Source: Octopus sinensis (taxonomy: Eukaryota). Taken from it: 17,292 nt of DNA. The stretch's first letter is position 1; each line of letters opens with the position of its first letter. A program made the translations under genes and the position numbers. The DNA is taken from NCBI RefSeq assembly GCF_006345805.1, contig NW_021824877.1, positions 1 to 17,292 on the forward strand, read 5' to 3'. A model generated the notes under the pieces. That model saw only the letters and a list, made by a program, of their open reading frames with translations. It was not told the origin of the DNA and searched no databases. Below, in pieces: positions 8,696-16,930 of this stretch.

Positions 8696-8782
8696 TGCAG
8701 TACGATCGTTTCATGCAACTCCATTTAATTGAACAATGTAATCATTACAGTAATTTAAAATGCACACCAATCCTCAGCTGCA
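8696..8782 (-). ncRNA. type I hammerhead ribozyme motif with long stem II
   Basis: Minus strand: UGCAG-CUGAGGA-[long hairpin]-GAAA-C-GAUC-GUA-CUGCA. Perfect 5-bp stem I, palindromic ACGAUCGU stem III, GUA cleavage triplet. Confidence 0.8.
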
Positions 8783-9358
8783 CAAAGACATAGAATTTAA
8801 TTAAATTAGAACAGATGGACACATTAGTATAATTATACCTAAAATCTTCAAGAAGTTAAGGAGATAGACAAAGAACATGCTGCGTTCACTCCAGCATAGA
8901 AACTACTACTCCAGCTTCTAATAACCCACCTCAAGTATATAATACTATTTAATAGTATTATATCTTTTTCTAAATAAGCTTTATTGATATCTATAAATAC
9001 GGGGGGAAATAAATATTCGTATATGTCAAAATTCTTTATTTATTTAATTTCTAATGAACATAAATGGGATATACCAATATTATATTTGAATACACATGCA
9101 TAAACTAAGAATATGCAAAAGAAACTAATAAATTATAGTAACTAATGAATTTATATACAATTATAAATATTTAGGGGTGAAAAAAGTATTCGTACAGAAT
9201 AAATTTATGATTTTCTATGCCACAAAATACTGTTAAAGTAAATTTTTTTTCTAGAACTCTCTCGTTTGTTCCAATAATCTTATCAGTTGTCATTTTTAAG
9301 TGTCAAAACGCTAGCTTCTTCATTCAGCACCGAGGCAACATAAAGTAGTATCGTAATA

Positions 9359-9885
9359 ATGACGAAAAGTAAAGAACTCACAAATTCAGTGAAAAACTTA
9401 ATTATTAAACAGTGGAAAGCAGGTAAAAGTTACAGGAAAATATCAGAGACCCTTTGTATTCCATTTTCTGCCGTATCTTCATTTATTCAAAGATATAAAA
9501 AAATCGGGAACTTTTGAAAACAGAATAAGATCCGGTGCACCACGCAAGATTTCTCATAGATCTTTAAGAAAAATGAAGCGAAGAATCGAAAAAAACGTAT
9601 TGATCGCCAAAAAGGAGTTGCAAGAAGATTTGTTAGCTTCAGGGACAAGTGTTACACTACGAACAATCAGCAATGAACTTCATAGGAATGAACTGAAGTC
9701 ACGCTCTCCTAGAAAAAACTCCGCTGTTGACTAAAAGGCATAGAGATGCCCGTTTAAAATTTGTTTATAAACATAAGGATAAATCTGATACATTCTGGGA
9801 AAATGTTCTATGGGCAGACGAGTCCAAAATTGAATTGTTTGGACGAAATTCGCGTAGCCATGTTTGGAGGAAAGATGGTACCGCC
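9359..9885 (+). pseudogene. Tc1-like transposase, N-terminal half, frameshifted
   Basis: MTKSKELTNSVKNLIIKQWKAGKSYRKISETL (paired-like HTH), RSGAPRKIS, TPLLTKRHRDARLKF, FWENVLWADESKIELFG (first D), HVWRKDGT, then an abrupt end. Confidence 0.9.
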
Positions 9886-10288
9886 TGTTTGCTGGCCCGA
9901 CAATGTTTATTCAGACGCATTTTGTGATGTCGGGCGCGAAAATACCTTAAGCTAAGCCTGAAAGCAAAAAAAGTCATAAAAGAATCATCCATAACTTGCA
10001 ATAAGCAACATTTATTAAACGTTATTACTGTTATTACTGTTATTTCTTTATTTTCTGCAAGCAAAATGCACCAAAAAGCTACACGTTTGCATTATGTTAT
10101 ATATACAATAATAATAAAGGACGTTACCGTATACAGTTTTACAAACCAAGCGCGTTATATAGACCTCCTTGACTCAAGTTAGAGAAGGGGTGCGTATTAT
10201 ACACAAGGTTTAGGTTTTTCAGAGGTACAGCCCCCTAAAAAGCCCCTGCGTATTATACCCAAGGGTGGACTATACTTTAGGATTTACG
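9886..10288. mobile_element. Tc2/pogo-like DNA transposon terminal fragment nested in the Tc1 element
   Basis: The reverse complement from 10288 reads TA|CGTAAATCCTAAAGTATAGTCCACCCTTGGGTATAATACGCAGGGG, resembling the CCGTA termini of Tc2-like elements. TGCGTATTATAC is repeated at 10191 and 10247. The inner boundary is uncertain. Confidence 0.6.
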
Positions 10289-10334
10289 TAAATAAAGAAT
10301 TTTGACATGAACGAATATTTATTTCCCCCCACTG

Positions 10335-10486
10335 TATATATATGTATATATACATAAATATATATATATATATATATATATATATAAATATATATATATA
10401 TATATATATGTGTGTGTGTGTGTGTGTGTGTGTGTGTGGTGTGTGTGTGTGTGTGTGTGTGTGTGTGTGTGTGTATGTGTGTGTGT
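10335..10486. repeat. (TA)n-(GT)n microsatellite
   Basis: Direct reading. Begins at the TA flanking the Tc1 right end. Confidence 0.9.
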
Positions 10487-10488
10487 GG

Positions 10489-10838
10489 AGCGAATCGACC
10501 CCTGTACTTATGATTTTTAAGCTTCATACTTATTCTATCCGTGTCTTTTGCCGAACCGCTATTTTATGTACACACACCAACACCAGTTGTCAAGCAGTGG
10601 TAGGAGACAAACACACACACACACACACACACACACACACACACACACACACACACACACACACATACACACACACACATACATACATACATATATGCTT
10701 TCGTCTACCAAATCCACTCAAGGCTTTCGTCGTCCCGGGGTTACAGGTAGGAGACACCGATGCCCAAGGTATCACGCAGTGAGACTGAACTCGGAACCAT
10801 GTTGTTGGGAAGCAACCTTCTTACCACTCTGCCATGCC
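10489..10838 (-). mobile_element. CORE-like SINE, near full length, with internal (CA)n microsatellite
   Basis: The head at 10695-10838 is homologous to 8415-8570. Internal (CA)n at 10610-10690, followed by a tail homologous to 2470-2510. Confidence 0.8.
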
Positions 10839-10967
10839 TGGGTCTACGTACAGCTACATTATGTAATCTGTCCCGACCTTATATCTGACAGCAGAAAGGG
10901 ATTTCAAGGAAATTTAGTTGCTATTTCTTAAAGGCCCACCCAAGGACTTCCTGCCTGACTCACTGAC

Positions 10968-11082
10968 GGTTGTGGTGGTGGTTGTGGCGGCGGTGGTGGT
11001 GATGGTGGTGGTGGTGGTGGCGGTGGTGGTGGTGGTGGTGGTGGTGGTGGTGGTTGCAGTCATCGCTGTTGTCGTCGTCGTC
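10968..11082. repeat. (GGT)n/(GTC)n trinucleotide repeat
   Basis: Direct reading of the sequence. Confidence 0.9.
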
Positions 11083-11426
11083 TTTGTCAGAGGATTTAGA
11101 CTAAGTGAAGAAACAAACAGATACACGTAGACAGAGGATGTTTTTTTTTTTAAAGCGACCAGCTTTAGTACCCCCAATACCTTAGCTTTCTACCTACCTA
11201 TCTCCACCCACCAACTTTTTTTTTTACTCTCAAAGATTAAAGAGTCTGACACCGCTTAGCCACCTTTCTACCACCAATTCATTTGCAGTACCTACTTAAC
11301 CCACCTAATTATCAATTGTGCCACCCACTGGTCTCTCAACTCTACAATTGGCCTTAGACTAAAACATGCATACCTACCTACCCACCTAAAATCCCACACA
11401 CTTACCCACACACCTACCTAGGTAGT

Positions 11427-14991: not shown

Positions 14992-15035
14992 TAAATAAAT
15001 GGAGTTAAACGCAGGTGTTCTTCAAGTTCTTTTAC

Positions 15036-15120
15036 CTCCGACATATGTTTCGAAGACAAAATTGGTATTATTCCAAAGGAATAAAATGGTGAAAAACAAT
15101 GTAATCTTCTCATCAGGGAA
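15036..15120 (-). ncRNA. canonical type I hammerhead ribozyme
   Basis: Minus strand: UUCC-CUGAUGA-GAAGAU...GUCUUC-GAAA-C-AUAU-GUC-GGAG. All core bases are present, stem II is closed by G-C, stem III is the palindrome ACAUAUGU, and the predicted cut is between 15040 and 15039. Confidence 0.88.
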
Positions 15121-15404
15121 ATAAATAAAGAAACCAAACTCATCAATAAGACATTTTAACAGAATCTGATGGATGTGCATAATGATAAACGGAACGCTAT
15201 TAAGTTTTTAAAAAAAACTGTTAGAAGATATAACGTCAAAAGTAGCCTGTGGAAAGAGGTGGGGTAAAGTAAAGAAATAAGCAGAAAACTAATAAAAGAG
15301 AAATATAGAGCGATATGCGAATTAAAATAAAAGCTTAAAGGCTTGGAAAAAGATATATCTAGTGGAAGTGAAATGAATGTTCAAATTATATATAATGGTA
15401 GATA

Positions 15405-15683
15405 TCACTTATGTGAACTAAAGGTATGTTTCTGCCAATGATTACATCGATAAGCACGCTCTAGAACCGTGTTTACAAGGGGATTCTTATAAAATAGAAT
15501 AGAAAATAGTTCACTATTACAGAGTTGGCAAAATTCTTTGCCTTTATCATATGGGAATGAAATGGAGAAAATCAACCAATCTAAATTAAATTGTTTATTA
15601 TGGTCTTTTAGATAGCAAATTAATTTACTAAACTCTGTATTGTTGCGTTTATTACTATCCCTAAATTTAGAGTAATGTTGCAT
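15405..15683 (-). pseudogene. Penelope-like GIY-YIG endonuclease C-terminal fragment (Naiad-like CxxC...CxH end)
   Basis: H..KFR....RN.TEFSKLI..LKD.N..F...W.I.....PY......CQLC..E...IL......N........CNH, matching the C-terminal half of PLE endonucleases from recall. Confidence 0.78.
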
Positions 15684-16180
15684 ATTACACGATTTTTTTG
15701 TTTTTGGTTTTTTTGGTTCTCGTGTCGGAGTAACCAGTCAACATCGAAGAATCAACACCAAGAAGGAAGAAATATTTACATATTCGTTCGCCCGACATCG
15801 ATATTTTAGCCGCAGGGCCAAATTTGGGGGGGGGGGAATTTTTGGTTTATACACATAAAAAGCGCACCGGTGTTTAAAAGACCAATAGAGCTACGAGTCG
15901 GCAGCTAGCCTTTTTGTTGTTGACATGTATGTAGTTTCAAAATGCCTTATTTTACAACTATGAGATGTATTGTTATTGATAATGATTTTATCTTACTATA
16001 ATCAACAACAAACACATTTCGTCAGTACAAAAGTCTTTATTATATTAAGAATAACATTATCAAAACATGAAGGTAAAACAAATATGCTTTGTTTTCTTCT
16101 AGGCACCAATGTACTGTAGCAGTAGTCTTTCACGTTGTTCCCTAATTGACTTGCCACAGAAAAAAATCAGTCGAATCAGT

Positions 16181-16245
16181 CATGATAATAATTTTCATAA
16201 GGATAAATACGAGCATCATAATAATAATTTTCATAAGGGTAAATA
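16181..16245. repeat. 29-bp direct repeat, 36-bp period
   Basis: catgataataattttcataaggataaata (16181-16209) versus cataataataattttcataagggtaaata (16217-16245). Confidence 0.85.
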
Positions 16246-16679
16246 TGTATATCCGAAATTATTCTCTGCTATTTCCTTTATCAAGTCCTCTGTAATGATA
16301 ACTTTTTGTTTATACTTCTTACACTGAGGAGAACAGTGATATATAATTAATTTACTTTAACCAAATGAATTCAAATTATTCTACCATGAATTTGCATATT
16401 TTAATATCGCTGTTTGAAACGGTCATATGCAGGAATTAAAATTCTTTCAAATTTTAACATCTTCTCTTCTTCATTTTTAACAAATTTGTTGAGTTTTATG
16501 GGATACCTTTCCCTAAATTCACATAACATACCATATATATATATACATATATTAAATTAGAGATAAAACCACTATTAGGCAAATTATACAATGAAAAACT
16601 TAAGCCAATACATAAGATTAATTAATTCATATTATTTTAAATATATATCAAAATTATTAAAAAAAGATAATGAGTATAA

Positions 16680-16742
16680 CACTACGATCGTTTCATGGTT
16701 GTCCAATTCGTACAAATTCGAGCTACAGTCAATCTTCAGGTG
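16680..16742 (-). ncRNA. type I hammerhead ribozyme motif, related to 8696-8782
   Basis: Minus strand: CAC-CUGAAGA-UUGACUGU...ACAACCAU-GAAA-C-GAUC-GUA-GUG. Shares the 15-mer TACGATCGTTTCATG with 8701-8715. 3-bp stem I, imperfect stem II. Confidence 0.72.
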
Positions 16743-16896
16743 ATTGAAATATTTATCTTAGCGAGATATATATATATATATATATATATATATAATATAT
16801 ATAGTCAATCTAAACAAAGAACAAGCAAGAAAAAACAACGCGAAGACGTGGTAAGTACTGTTTACTGGACGCTCAGAGAGGAAAGAAAAGAAAGAG

Positions 16897-16930
16897 ATTT
16901 CACGTTCCGAGCGAAGCTCTTCATCAGAAT
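16897..16930 (-). ncRNA. degenerate minimal hammerhead motif, likely inactive
   Basis: Minus strand: AUU-CUGAUGA-A-GAGC-UUC-GCUC-GGAA-C-GUG-AAAU. GAAA is changed to GGAA and the triplet is GUG. ACGU palindrome present. Confidence 0.55.

What the first reader, a model, noticed from the sequence alone, without database searches (positions are those of the whole stretch)
8696..16930. Five hammerhead-ribozyme motifs in 8.2 kb, all on the minus strand, in at least four different repeat contexts
Seen: CUGANGA...GAAA cores (GGAA in the last) with flanking complementarity at 8696-8782, 13075-13113, 15036-15120, 16680-16742 and 16897-16930. Each has a tiny self-complementary stem III (ACGAUCGU twice, ACAUAUGU, ACGU, near-ACUAGU). 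Established: minimal type I HHRs with palindromic stem III mark Penelope-like elements and metazoan retrozymes, and can cleave as dimers. Inference: this genome carries a diverse set of self-cleaving retroelements invisible to ORF-based annotation. The shared orientation could reflect purging of sense-oriented ribozymes from a plus-strand host intron, but five motifs is a weak sample.
Basis: partly seen in the sequence, partly recalled or inferred. Interest (0 to 1): 0.8.

Follow-up and report, generated by a model that had tools for sequence, protein, structure and literature searches.

The report
Penelope retroelement hammerheads, with C4-core families
The five motifs are real minimal hammerhead-ribozyme motifs, each in the tail of a different high-copy repeat family (two traced to Penelope-like jumping genes, three likely their non-coding derivatives), a known arrangement; the one surprise is that four related families elsewhere in this genome mostly carry a C at a core position that is normally U and is predicted to slow cutting.

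Summary
All five motifs exist as described (4 pass a descriptor; shuffles average 0.07). Each lies 48-172 nt from the fixed 3' end of its own dispersed repeat family. H3 ends a Hydra-clade Penelope-like element (PLE; an intact 778-aa relative was found). H5 ends a Neptune-type PLE. H1, H2 and H4 have no ORF but carry the published Hydra-type U·U stem II; H2 is a 349-nt tandem unit. Hydra PLEs with hammerheads are already published for octopus, and this scan met such windows on other genomes. The orientation idea is not supported: neighbouring families elsewhere lie 13 same, 13 opposite, and no host gene was seen. The window's H5 copy is probably dead (G13, G17). Side result outside the window: a U4C core dominates four families (6,726 vs 2,935 exact copies in the H5 family; 82, 97 and 99 of the first 100 in three others) and is nested among U4 relatives in both trees built. 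Cleavage is untested. Verdict: new members of a known kind, with a testable core variant.

The parts
8696..8782 (-). H1 hammerhead motif: 5-bp stem I, CUGAGGA, U·U then long imperfect stem II, GAAA, palindrome ACGAUCGU, GUA site
   Evidence: core intact in 18 of 20 aligned relatives
8569..8908 (-). H1 element: 5'-truncated tail of an AT-rich repeat; long copies reach about 2 kb without an ORF; likely a non-autonomous Hydra-type PLE derivative
   Evidence: 1,920 exact copies of a 20-nt stretch
13075..13113 (-). H2 hammerhead motif: 4-bp stem I, CUGAUGA, U·U plus 3-bp stem II, GAAA, ACUAUU (family ACUAGU), UUC site
   Evidence: core intact in 22 of 24 relatives
12907..13178 (-). H2 element, downstream unit of a partial tandem of a 349-nt ORF-less unit (retrozyme-like)
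   Evidence: (L165 spacing 349)
13468..13685 (-). H2 element, upstream partial unit (3' end plus tail of the previous unit; no hammerhead)
13178..13467 (-). SINE-like insert that splits the H2 tandem, flanked by a 12-nt direct repeat (target-site duplication); sense strand inferred by eye
15031..15125 (-). H3 hammerhead motif: stem I up to 9 bp, CUGAUGA, 6-bp G-C-closed stem II, GAAA, palindrome ACAUAUGU, GUC site; the best-formed of the five
   Evidence: core intact in 11-12 of 28 relatives
14992..15677 (-). H3 element: 5'-truncated Hydra-clade PLE; 15677-15408 encodes the last 90 aa of the GIY-YIG endonuclease (CxxC..E..N..CxH)
16680..16742 (-). H4 hammerhead motif: 3-bp stem I, CUGAAGA, U·U (A-U in a sister subfamily) stem II, GAAA, palindrome ACGAUCGU, GUA site
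   Evidence: core intact in 19 of 20 relatives
16533..16765 (-). H4 element: short ORF-less repeat between TA runs, with an optional 85-nt 3' tail in other copies; its last 94 nt (about 20 of them TA run) are 82% like those of a copy that follows a Hydra-type endonuclease fragment (L155)
   Evidence: 704 exact copies of a 23-nt stretch
16897..16930 (-). H5 hammerhead motif: extra A after A9, 4-bp stem II, GGAA (private change), ACGU, G at N17 (subfamily trait); predicted to be impaired
16781..17001 (-). H5 element: short tail of a Neptune-type PLE whose long copies have RT, a Cys linker, GIY-YIG and a CA-rich 3' region of 1-2 kb
   Evidence: 8,768 exact copies of a core-degenerate pattern
16766..16803 (.). 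(TA)n tract shared as the 5' flank of H4 and the 3' flank of H5 (likely target site)

Best explanation
The five motifs are minimal type I hammerheads in the 3' ends of five different dispersed repeat families, of which two are traced to Penelope-like elements (H3 Hydra clade, H5 Neptune type) and three are likely non-autonomous derivatives of Hydra-type elements, left here as separate, truncated and probably inactive insertions whose shared strand is likely chance. Shown: each family has a fixed 3' end 48-172 nt past the cleavage site, variable 5' truncation, inverted or tandem partner copies, optional 3' tails and (except H2) TA-repeat flanks, all hallmarks of PLE insertion. Inferred: a PLE protein nicks TA-rich DNA and starts reverse transcription inside the element RNA, 3' of the ribozyme, on RNA that was not cut there, because the window copies and many relatives span the cleavage site. 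Inferred: where the ribozyme works at all it works slowly and as a dimer through the palindromic stem III in tandem transcripts, so lone copies such as these would rarely cut. Inferred: fast cutting is not needed for amplification, since lineages with G17 or C4 cores spread widely.
For: Descriptor 4 vs 0.068 in shuffles. 1,468-3,504 first-look candidates per family, 40 scored each. H3 matches the last 90 aa of an intact 778-aa ORF at 76%; that locus has a 783-nt pseudo-LTR at 99.6% identity, inverted truncated copies and TA flanks; its model (pLDDT 82.8) hits telomerase RT first (E 9.6e-9); its motifs read alongside Hydra-1_Obim as printed in the supplement of PMC8557442. H5: endonuclease end and hammerhead are collinear in 5 of 5 loci compared. 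The U·U-opened stem II with a longer palindrome is the pattern listed for most H. magnipapillata Hydra elements. A pattern for it has 2,321 matches vs 8 for the reversed control; in 13 of 20 hand-picked unlike representatives stems I and III, which were not in the pattern, pair up (5.5 expected, 0 of 5000 permutations). TA repeats at the 3' end: H1 15 of 19, H3 20 of 24, H4 18 of 18, H5 12 of 19, H2 0 of 19. Strand counts are even genome-wide. Neighbour orientation 13 vs 13. PMC11167929: internal RT start, hammerhead mutants do not stop insertion in vitro.
Against: No coding parent was found for H1, H2 or H4 (tblastn of 30, 49 and 124 loci; the hits in H1 and H4 loci were not collinear with the element, none in H2 loci), so their PLE origin rests on the hammerhead type, tails and junction pattern. 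H2 does not use TA targets. The L196 protein lacks the CxCX5C linker listed for Hydra and has no Pfam hit. The Neptune call rests on motifs read in broken frames, not on a tree. Rfam and folding z-scores give nothing. In the window 10 of 11 BLAST-placed retroelement copies are on the minus strand (five PLE tails, five of six SINE copies; two-sided p about 0.012), 11 of 14 with three pieces seen by eye (p about 0.06). No cleavage or strand-specific RNA data.
Confidence: 0.87

Rival explanations
1. The contig lies in a plus-strand host intron, and sense-oriented hammerhead copies were purged because they cut the pre-mRNA.
For: Five of five on one strand; 10 of 11 BLAST-placed retroelement copies in the window are minus. 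PMC listing not needed: bioRxiv 10.64898/2026.07.22.740005 reports retrozymes depleted from Xenopus introns (passages), without a strand test.
Against: In 411 loci (1.33 Mb) pairs of different hammerhead families lie 13 same and 13 opposite, hammerhead-SINE pairs 111 and 123, SINE-SINE pairs 39 and 41. The local bias includes SINEs, which have no ribozyme. No exon was recognised; the window is the whole contig. H4 and H5 share one TA tract, so five is not five independent events. Lone minimal hammerheads showed no cleavage in PMC4209133. The pair test is small and mixes genic with intergenic DNA.
Confidence: 0.1
2. The hammerheads of these elements no longer need to cut at all; the fold is kept as a protein-binding or RT-positioning structure, or is simply hitch-hiking.
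For: A G17 clade (57 G17 rows in a 62-row clade, support 99/94) and a C4 clade spread in the H5 family. Both pseudo-LTRs of the intact young element L196 carry C4. No sharp pile of 5' ends at the cleavage site: 3 of 90 H4 copies start exactly there, 6 within 3 nt. PMC11167929 found mutants harmless in vitro and no RNA ends at the site.
Against: Stems covary across families while the core stays put. The four C4 families keep the other core positions and the stems; free decay would hit other positions as well. U4C keeps enough activity for a viroid to infect (PMC3088659 passage).
Confidence: 0.25
3. H2 (and perhaps H4) are true retrozymes that move through self-cleaved, circularised RNA rather than as PLE 3' ends.
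For: H2 forms head-to-tail units of 349 nt with no ORF; its 3' end runs on into the next unit's 5' part in 3 of 26 junction-anchored copies; the size fits the 170-400 nt of animal retrozymes (PMC7229834 passages).
Against: Most H2 copies are single or inverted pairs with PLE-type tails; the ribozyme is the minimal PLE type, not the canonical loop-loop type of expressed retrozymes; the window copy has one hammerhead only and is split by a SINE. The two readings overlap, as animal retrozymes are argued to derive from PLE ends.
Confidence: 0.2
4. The motifs are chance matches in AT-rich repeats.
For: No Rfam hit and no folding signal.
Against: Shuffle rate 0.068; conservation in families; position behind PLE ORFs; cross-family covariation.
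Confidence: 0.01

Closest known systems
Minimal hammerheads (min-HHR) in the pseudo-LTRs of animal Penelope-like elements (Cervera and De la Pena 2014, PMC4209133)
   Same: Type I core, short stem I, palindromic stem III, thousands of scattered single copies in several families, inverted pairs 100-700 bp apart; H5 has the extra base after A9 and G10.1-C11.1.
   Different: H1, H2, H4 have U·U at 10.1/11.1; H1 and H3 have 58-nt stem II regions; the H5 subfamily has G17; sister subfamilies have C4, which does not occur in the searched supplement.
Hydra-clade PLEs, including Hydra-1_Obim of Octopus bimaculoides (Craig et al. 2021, PMC8557442)
   Same: Single ORF under 3 kb, RW(K) and DKT motifs, C-terminal GIY-YIG with CxxC and CxH, TA targets, hammerhead near the 3' end, U·U-opened stem II in most listed H. 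magnipapillata families.
   Different: The H3 family is a different family from Hydra-1_Obim (other hammerhead sequence) and lacks the CxCX5C linker; H1, H2 and H4 have no ORF.
Neptune-clade PLEs (as characterised in PMC8557442)
   Same: RT followed by a CX2-5CxxC linker and a GIY-YIG with CCHH; microsatellite targets; hammerhead near the 3' end.
   Different: Very long CA-rich 3' region; most copies are a 210-230 nt tail; the commonest core is C4; no intact ORF was found.
Animal non-LTR retrozymes (PMC7229834; bioRxiv 10.64898/2026.07.22.740005)
   Same: ORF-less tandem units with a type I hammerhead (H2, 349 nt; a 544-nt family outside the window).
   Different: Minimal, not canonical, hammerhead; mostly monomers and inverted pairs for H2; circular RNA not shown; the 544-nt unit is longer than the published range and has C4.
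Natural hammerhead core variants (Perreault et al. 2011, PMC3088659; G17: Kalweit and Hammann 2013, PMC3884650)
   Same: U10.1·U11.1 and U4C are both known in nature; U4C lowers activity in vitro, G17 strongly impairs minimal hammerheads.
   Different: There U4C is a rare viroid variant; here it is the majority state of four retroelement families with thousands of copies.

Membership tests
PLE minimal hammerhead (PMC4209133) | Core CUGANGA ... GAAA ... UH | tested here: met
   H1-H4 window copies
PLE minimal hammerhead (PMC4209133) | Same core in the H5 window copy | tested here: not met
   GGAA and G17; relatives with GAAA and H17 exist (2,935 exact copies), so the copy is a decayed member of a member family
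PLE minimal hammerhead (PMC4209133) | Stems I and II can pair and covary among families | tested here: met
   13 of 20 representatives, 0 of 5000 permutations; stem II fourth pair 10 of 20 vs 5.7 (106 of 5000)
PLE minimal hammerhead (PMC4209133) | Palindromic stem III able to form a dimer helix | tested here: met
   H1, H4 -10.0 and H3 -7.0 kcal/mol self-duplex; H2 copy +2.2 (one mismatch); the H5 figure was taken at shifted coordinates and is not used
PLE minimal hammerhead (PMC4209133) | Extra base after A9 and G10.1-C11.1 | tested here: inconclusive
   H5 both; H3 G-C without the extra base; H1, H2, H4 U·U as in Hydra elements
PLE minimal hammerhead (PMC4209133) | Lies in sense in the terminal repeat of a PLE ORF | tested here: inconclusive
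   met for H3 and H5; no parent ORF for H1, H2, H4
PLE minimal hammerhead (PMC4209133) | Self-cleavage as a dimer | not testable with these tools
   no assay; RNA contigs uninformative
Hydra-clade PLE (H3 family) | Single ORF, element under 3 kb, telomerase-like RT plus C-terminal GIY-YIG | tested here: met
   778 aa; TERT top fold hit; GIY-YIG E 0.002, below cut-off, in a sister copy
Hydra-clade PLE (H3 family) | RWK and DKT motifs; no CCHH; CxxC and CxH around E and N | tested here: met
   RW(L), DKT, CLLC..E..N..CKH read against section 11 and the printed Hydra proteins
Hydra-clade PLE (H3 family) | CxCX5C linker before the endonuclease | tested here: not met
   absent in L196; present in L155 and as conserved Cys columns in homologues
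Hydra-clade PLE (H3 family) | (TA)n targets | tested here: met
   20 of 24 loci; the window copy itself is not TA-flanked
Hydra-clade PLE (H3 family) | RT phylogeny within Hydra | not tested
   reference proteins could be read in the supplement but not loaded
Neptune-clade PLE (H5 family) | RT, then CX2-5CxxC linker, then GIY-YIG with CCHH | tested here: met
   read across frameshifts in L285 and L289; GIY-YIG E 0.021, below cut-off
Neptune-clade PLE (H5 family) | RT phylogeny within Neptune | not tested
   no tree with references
Animal retrozyme (H2) | ORF-less tandem unit of 170-400 nt with a type I hammerhead per unit | tested here: met
   349-nt unit in L165; 273-nt spacing in L058/L164; few copies are tandem
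Animal retrozyme (H2) | Canonical hammerhead with loop 1-loop 2 contacts | not tested
   motif is of the minimal type by shape; contacts not modelled
Animal retrozyme (H2) | Circular RNA in tissue | not testable with these tools
   no RNA holder on record

The most novel reading that the evidence does not exclude
In this genome a CCGANGA (U4C) core is a recurrent, selected natural form of the Penelope-element hammerhead. It arose at least twice (once in a Neptune-type and once in a Hydra-type lineage), marks the youngest and largest expansions, and leaves the rest of the core and stems intact. It would act as a slowed ribozyme that lets the element RNA stay uncut long enough to be copied. Standard CUGANGA descriptors miss more than ten thousand such copies, including a 544-nt retrozyme-like tandem family.
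Probability: 0.3. Interest if true: 0.62.

Novelty: new member of a known kind. Interest (0 to 1): 0.36.

Why it matters
The five motifs themselves are ordinary for an animal genome rich in Penelope-like elements. What they are for is an open question (PMC8557442 calls it unclear). This genome offers natural, matched pairs within one family: U4 versus C4 and H17 versus G17 subfamilies with known copy numbers and relative ages, plus an intact young element that carries C4 in both repeats. That makes 'does a PLE need its ribozyme to cut, and how fast' directly testable, and it warns that descriptor counts of PLE hammerheads can miss the largest subfamilies.

Tried and rejected
Rfam scans: no hammerhead family at E<=10. 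Single-strand folding z-scores: flat. Footprint of cleavage in the genome: one search suggested a pile of 5' junctions at the H4 cleavage site (about 10-13 of the first 100, read by eye), but an anchor further downstream gave 3 of 90 exactly at the site, 6 within 3 nt, 14 at +4 to +10 and 12 at +11 to +30; a broad excess just 3' of the site remains, a sharp spike is rejected; junction calls in this AT-rich DNA are good to a few bases only. A single fixed 5' end for H4: rejected, ends scatter. Novelty of the U·U stem II: rejected, it is in print. Sequencing runs: no RNA holder listed; four contig sets guessed to be RNA gave short repeat-derived pieces and no usable joint. Homologue search with a 122-aa fragment against longer proteins: nothing. 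PDB sequence searches: nothing. Single-sequence model: pLDDT 33.8, unused. A family-density estimate from 8 hits undercounts H5 against exact counts and was set aside. Paper look-ups for Lunse et al. 2017 failed; PMC1636495 held none of the terms sought.

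
Full report
Setting. The window is the whole of contig G000:C1348, in a 2.7-Gb animal genome. It is almost all microsatellites and transposon relics. Protein likeness points to an octopus-like host; this is an inference.

1. The observation. I call them H1 (8696-8782), H2 (13075-13113), H3 (15031-15125), H4 (16680-16742) and H5 (16897-16930). 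A type I descriptor finds H1-H4 and nothing on the plus strand; 1000 shuffled windows give a mean of 0.068 and never more than 1. H5 fails because it reads GGAA and has G at the cleavage position. H1, H2 and H4 open stem II with U·U. Rfam finds no hammerhead at E<=10 and folding energies are no better than shuffles, as expected for motifs with almost no stem III. Against this genome's own background the cluster is modest: 18 CUGA-core hits, some duplicated, in 469.8 kb of flanks of fetched loci (0-4 in ten shuffles), or about 0.66 per window. Those flanks adjoin PLE insertions and may be richer than average.

2. Five families. Each motif sits in its own dispersed repeat, with 1,468-3,504 first-look candidates of which 40 were scored per search. 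Window extents are H1 8569-8908, H2 12907-13178 plus 13468-13685, H3 14992-15677, H4 16533-16765, H5 about 16781-17001. The five do not match each other. All have a fixed 3' end 48-172 nt past the cleavage site and variable 5' ends. Inverted or tandem partner copies and optional 3' tails are common. TA repeats follow the 3' end in 15 of 19 (H1), 0 of 19 (H2), 20 of 24 (H3), 18 of 18 (H4) and 12 of 19 (H5) loci. Among the closest relatives the core pattern is intact in 18 of 20, 22 of 24, 11 of 28 (12 with a looser spacer), 19 of 20 and 14 of 19, and 12 of those 14 H5 relatives have G17.

3. Parents. H3: the window encodes the last 90 residues of an endonuclease, 76% identical to an intact 778-aa ORF in L196 and L197. 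L196 has a 783-nt repeat at 99.6% identity, inverted truncated copies and TA flanks. A model from a 25-row alignment (pLDDT 82.8) matches telomerase RT first (E 9.6e-9). The protein shows RW, DKT, YRDD and CxxC..E..N..CxH, the marks of the Hydra clade (PMC8557442 section 11), and reads alongside the printed Hydra-1_Obim, but lacks the CxCX5C linker. H5: long copies carry a CA-rich region and, upstream, RT motifs, a CX2-5CxxC linker and a GIY-YIG with CCHH, read across frameshifts; the endonuclease end or the sequence just behind it and the hammerhead are collinear in 5 of 5 loci compared. That is Neptune-type by motif. H1, H2, H4: no collinear ORF in 30, 49 and 124 loci. H1 long copies are AT-rich for about 2 kb. 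H2 is a 349-nt unit that can run head to tail; the window holds about 1.4 units split by a SINE with a 12-nt duplication. H4 shares its 3' end (82% over 96 columns, part of it TA run) with a copy that follows a Hydra-type endonuclease fragment. Their U·U stem II with a 6-8 nt palindrome is the pattern listed for most H. magnipapillata Hydra elements (File S2). A pattern for it has 2,321 matches against 8 reversed. In 20 representatives that I picked for unlike sequence from the first 100 listed, stems I and III pair in 13, against 5.5 when 5' arms are permuted (0 of 5000); related rows are included, so this is not a count of independent events.

4. Orientation. Five alike has probability 1 in 16, and H4 and H5 share a TA tract. 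Exact-pattern counts are even on both strands (for example 952/968, 346/358, 3363/3363), which says nothing about genes. The useful test is neighbours: in 411 loci, pairs of different hammerhead families lie 13 same and 13 opposite, hammerhead-SINE pairs 111 and 123, SINE pairs 39 and 41; families present in both orientations in a locus were left out. Against my reading, 10 of 11 BLAST-placed retroelement copies in the window are minus (p about 0.012), 11 of 14 with three pieces seen by eye (about 0.06). A local bias is therefore possible, but it covers SINEs too and so is not ribozyme-specific. No exon was recognised. I could not test gene orientation.

5. How it likely works. From PMC11167929 (parts 1-2 of 4): a PLE protein nicks AT-rich DNA and starts reverse transcription inside its RNA; two start sites explain the tail; hammerhead mutants do not block insertion in vitro and uncut RNA is the main template. 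The fixed ends, tails and TA targets here fit that. The window copies span the cleavage site, so their templates were uncut or re-joined (inferred). The palindromes of H1 and H4 give a predicted self-duplex of -10.0 kcal/mol and H3 -7.0, enough for the dimer fold proposed in PMC4209133 (parts 1-2 of 4), where single motifs did not cut. A search for 5' ends piled at the cleavage site failed: 3 of 90 H4 copies start there.

6. The unexpected part, outside the window. In the H5 family exact matches with a C4 core number 6,726 against 2,935 with U4; a core-degenerate pattern gives 68 C4 in the first 100 of 8,768, counted by eye. In a tree of 138 copies (those with both flanking motifs present; bootstrap not fully settled) the 24 C4 rows fall in one 28-row clade (99/85) nested among U4 rows under a midpoint root, and are the least diverged (median 4.3% from their column majority, against 7.0% and 6.4%). 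The G17 copies form another clade (99/94) that holds the window copy; 139 exact G17 copies have the CUGAUGA core. In the H3 family 82 of the first 100 of 551 matches are C4 (by eye), both repeats of L196 are C4, and L196 nests among U4 relatives in a 48-row tree (3 rows dropped; only one row stands for the young subfamily). Two more families are almost fixed for C4: 97 of the first 100 of 2,700 and 99 of the first 100 of 955, the second a 544-nt tandem. The other core bases and the stems stay in place in these families. U-to-C is not a CpG-decay product; decay runs the other way. Cautions: exact matching favours young copies; the three Hydra-type families may share one C4 ancestor; the G17 clade shows that other core changes also spread. 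PMC3088659 (passages and section 8) says U4C lowers activity in vitro yet lets a viroid infect, and that U10.1·U11.1 is tolerated. PMC3884650 (abstract) says G17 strongly impairs minimal hammerheads.

7. What is in print. PLE minimal hammerheads: PMC4209133 (also supplement file 2, part 1 of 3 and passages). Hydra clade with an octopus member and its hammerhead: PMC8557442 (passages, section 11, supplement part 2 of 59 and passages). Retrozymes: PMC7229834 (passages), bioRxiv 10.64898/2026.07.22.740005 (part 1 of 5 and passages; supplements not seen), review PMC6765202 (passages). I found no report of C4 cores in PLE hammerheads in searches or in the supplement search 91, but Lunse et al. 2017, the likeliest place, is not held. 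This scan has 269 earlier notes on PLE minimal hammerheads in other genomes, none on this genome, and unchecked notes on C4 cores in phages and a Euglena-like repeat; my C4 counts were made before I saw those.

8. Verdict. Observation confirmed; kind known; orientation idea not supported. It works like, and for H3 and H5 families is, the terminal hammerhead of a Penelope-like element; for H1, H2 and H4 membership is likely but unproven. Interest 0.36, carried mainly by the C4 and G17 subfamilies, which make the ribozyme's role testable.

Noticed in passing
G000:C1:3710623-3711730 and many other arrays (L481-L488): A 542-545 nt ORF-less tandem family, two adjacent units 98% alike, arrays of up to about six, each unit with a Hydra-type hammerhead whose core is CCGAUGA (99 of the first 100 of 955 exact matches). 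A young retrozyme-like family that a CUGANGA search misses.
   Followed up: partly
L473-L480, L159:3700-3900: A Hydra-linked family with a 6-bp stem I and a CCGAAGA core in 97 of the first 100 of 2,700 exact matches.
   Followed up: partly
L196 (G000:C1:79873500-79881500), L197: Two near-identical intact 778-aa Hydra-type ORFs; L196 has a 783-nt pseudo-LTR and inverted truncated copies; the usual Cys linker is replaced by an Asn-rich stretch of low model confidence. Pfam gives no hit, and the closest named homologue is labelled 'GATA zinc finger domain-containing protein 14-like'.
   Followed up: yes
H5 family: Most copies start 70-90 nt upstream of the core although long copies run about 2 kb further; the boundary could be a transcription start in the pseudo-LTR or a microhomology hot spot.
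   Followed up: partly
L037 flank: One more hammerhead-like motif with a CCGAGGA core and 4-bp stem I; family size not checked.
   Followed up: no
window 1563-2385 (+) and 9180-9890 (+): Decayed mariner (Pfam HTH_48, Transposase_1; inverted ends seen by eye) and Tc1-like (HTH_Tnp_Tc3_2) transposons.
   Followed up: partly
window 6200-8330 (-): Broken, Cys/His-rich transposase-like frames with no clear Pfam hit; looks like a DNA transposon relic.
   Followed up: no
window 13870-14640 (+) and 14731-14955 (-): By eye, the 5' part of a LINE (ORF1 remnant then an APE-like start) and a fragment of an R4/Dong-like LINE next to the H3 3' end; labels are recalled, Pfam found nothing.
   Followed up: no
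window 750-1240, 1416-1555, 8426-8568, 10704-10827, 13186-13465: Six SINE-like copies of three families, five on the minus strand if sense is as judged by eye.
   Followed up: partly
L284-L287: A further short motif ending in GCTCGAAACGT after GAAGAGCG but without CUGA upstream, seen four times; possibly another decayed PLE tail.
   Followed up: no
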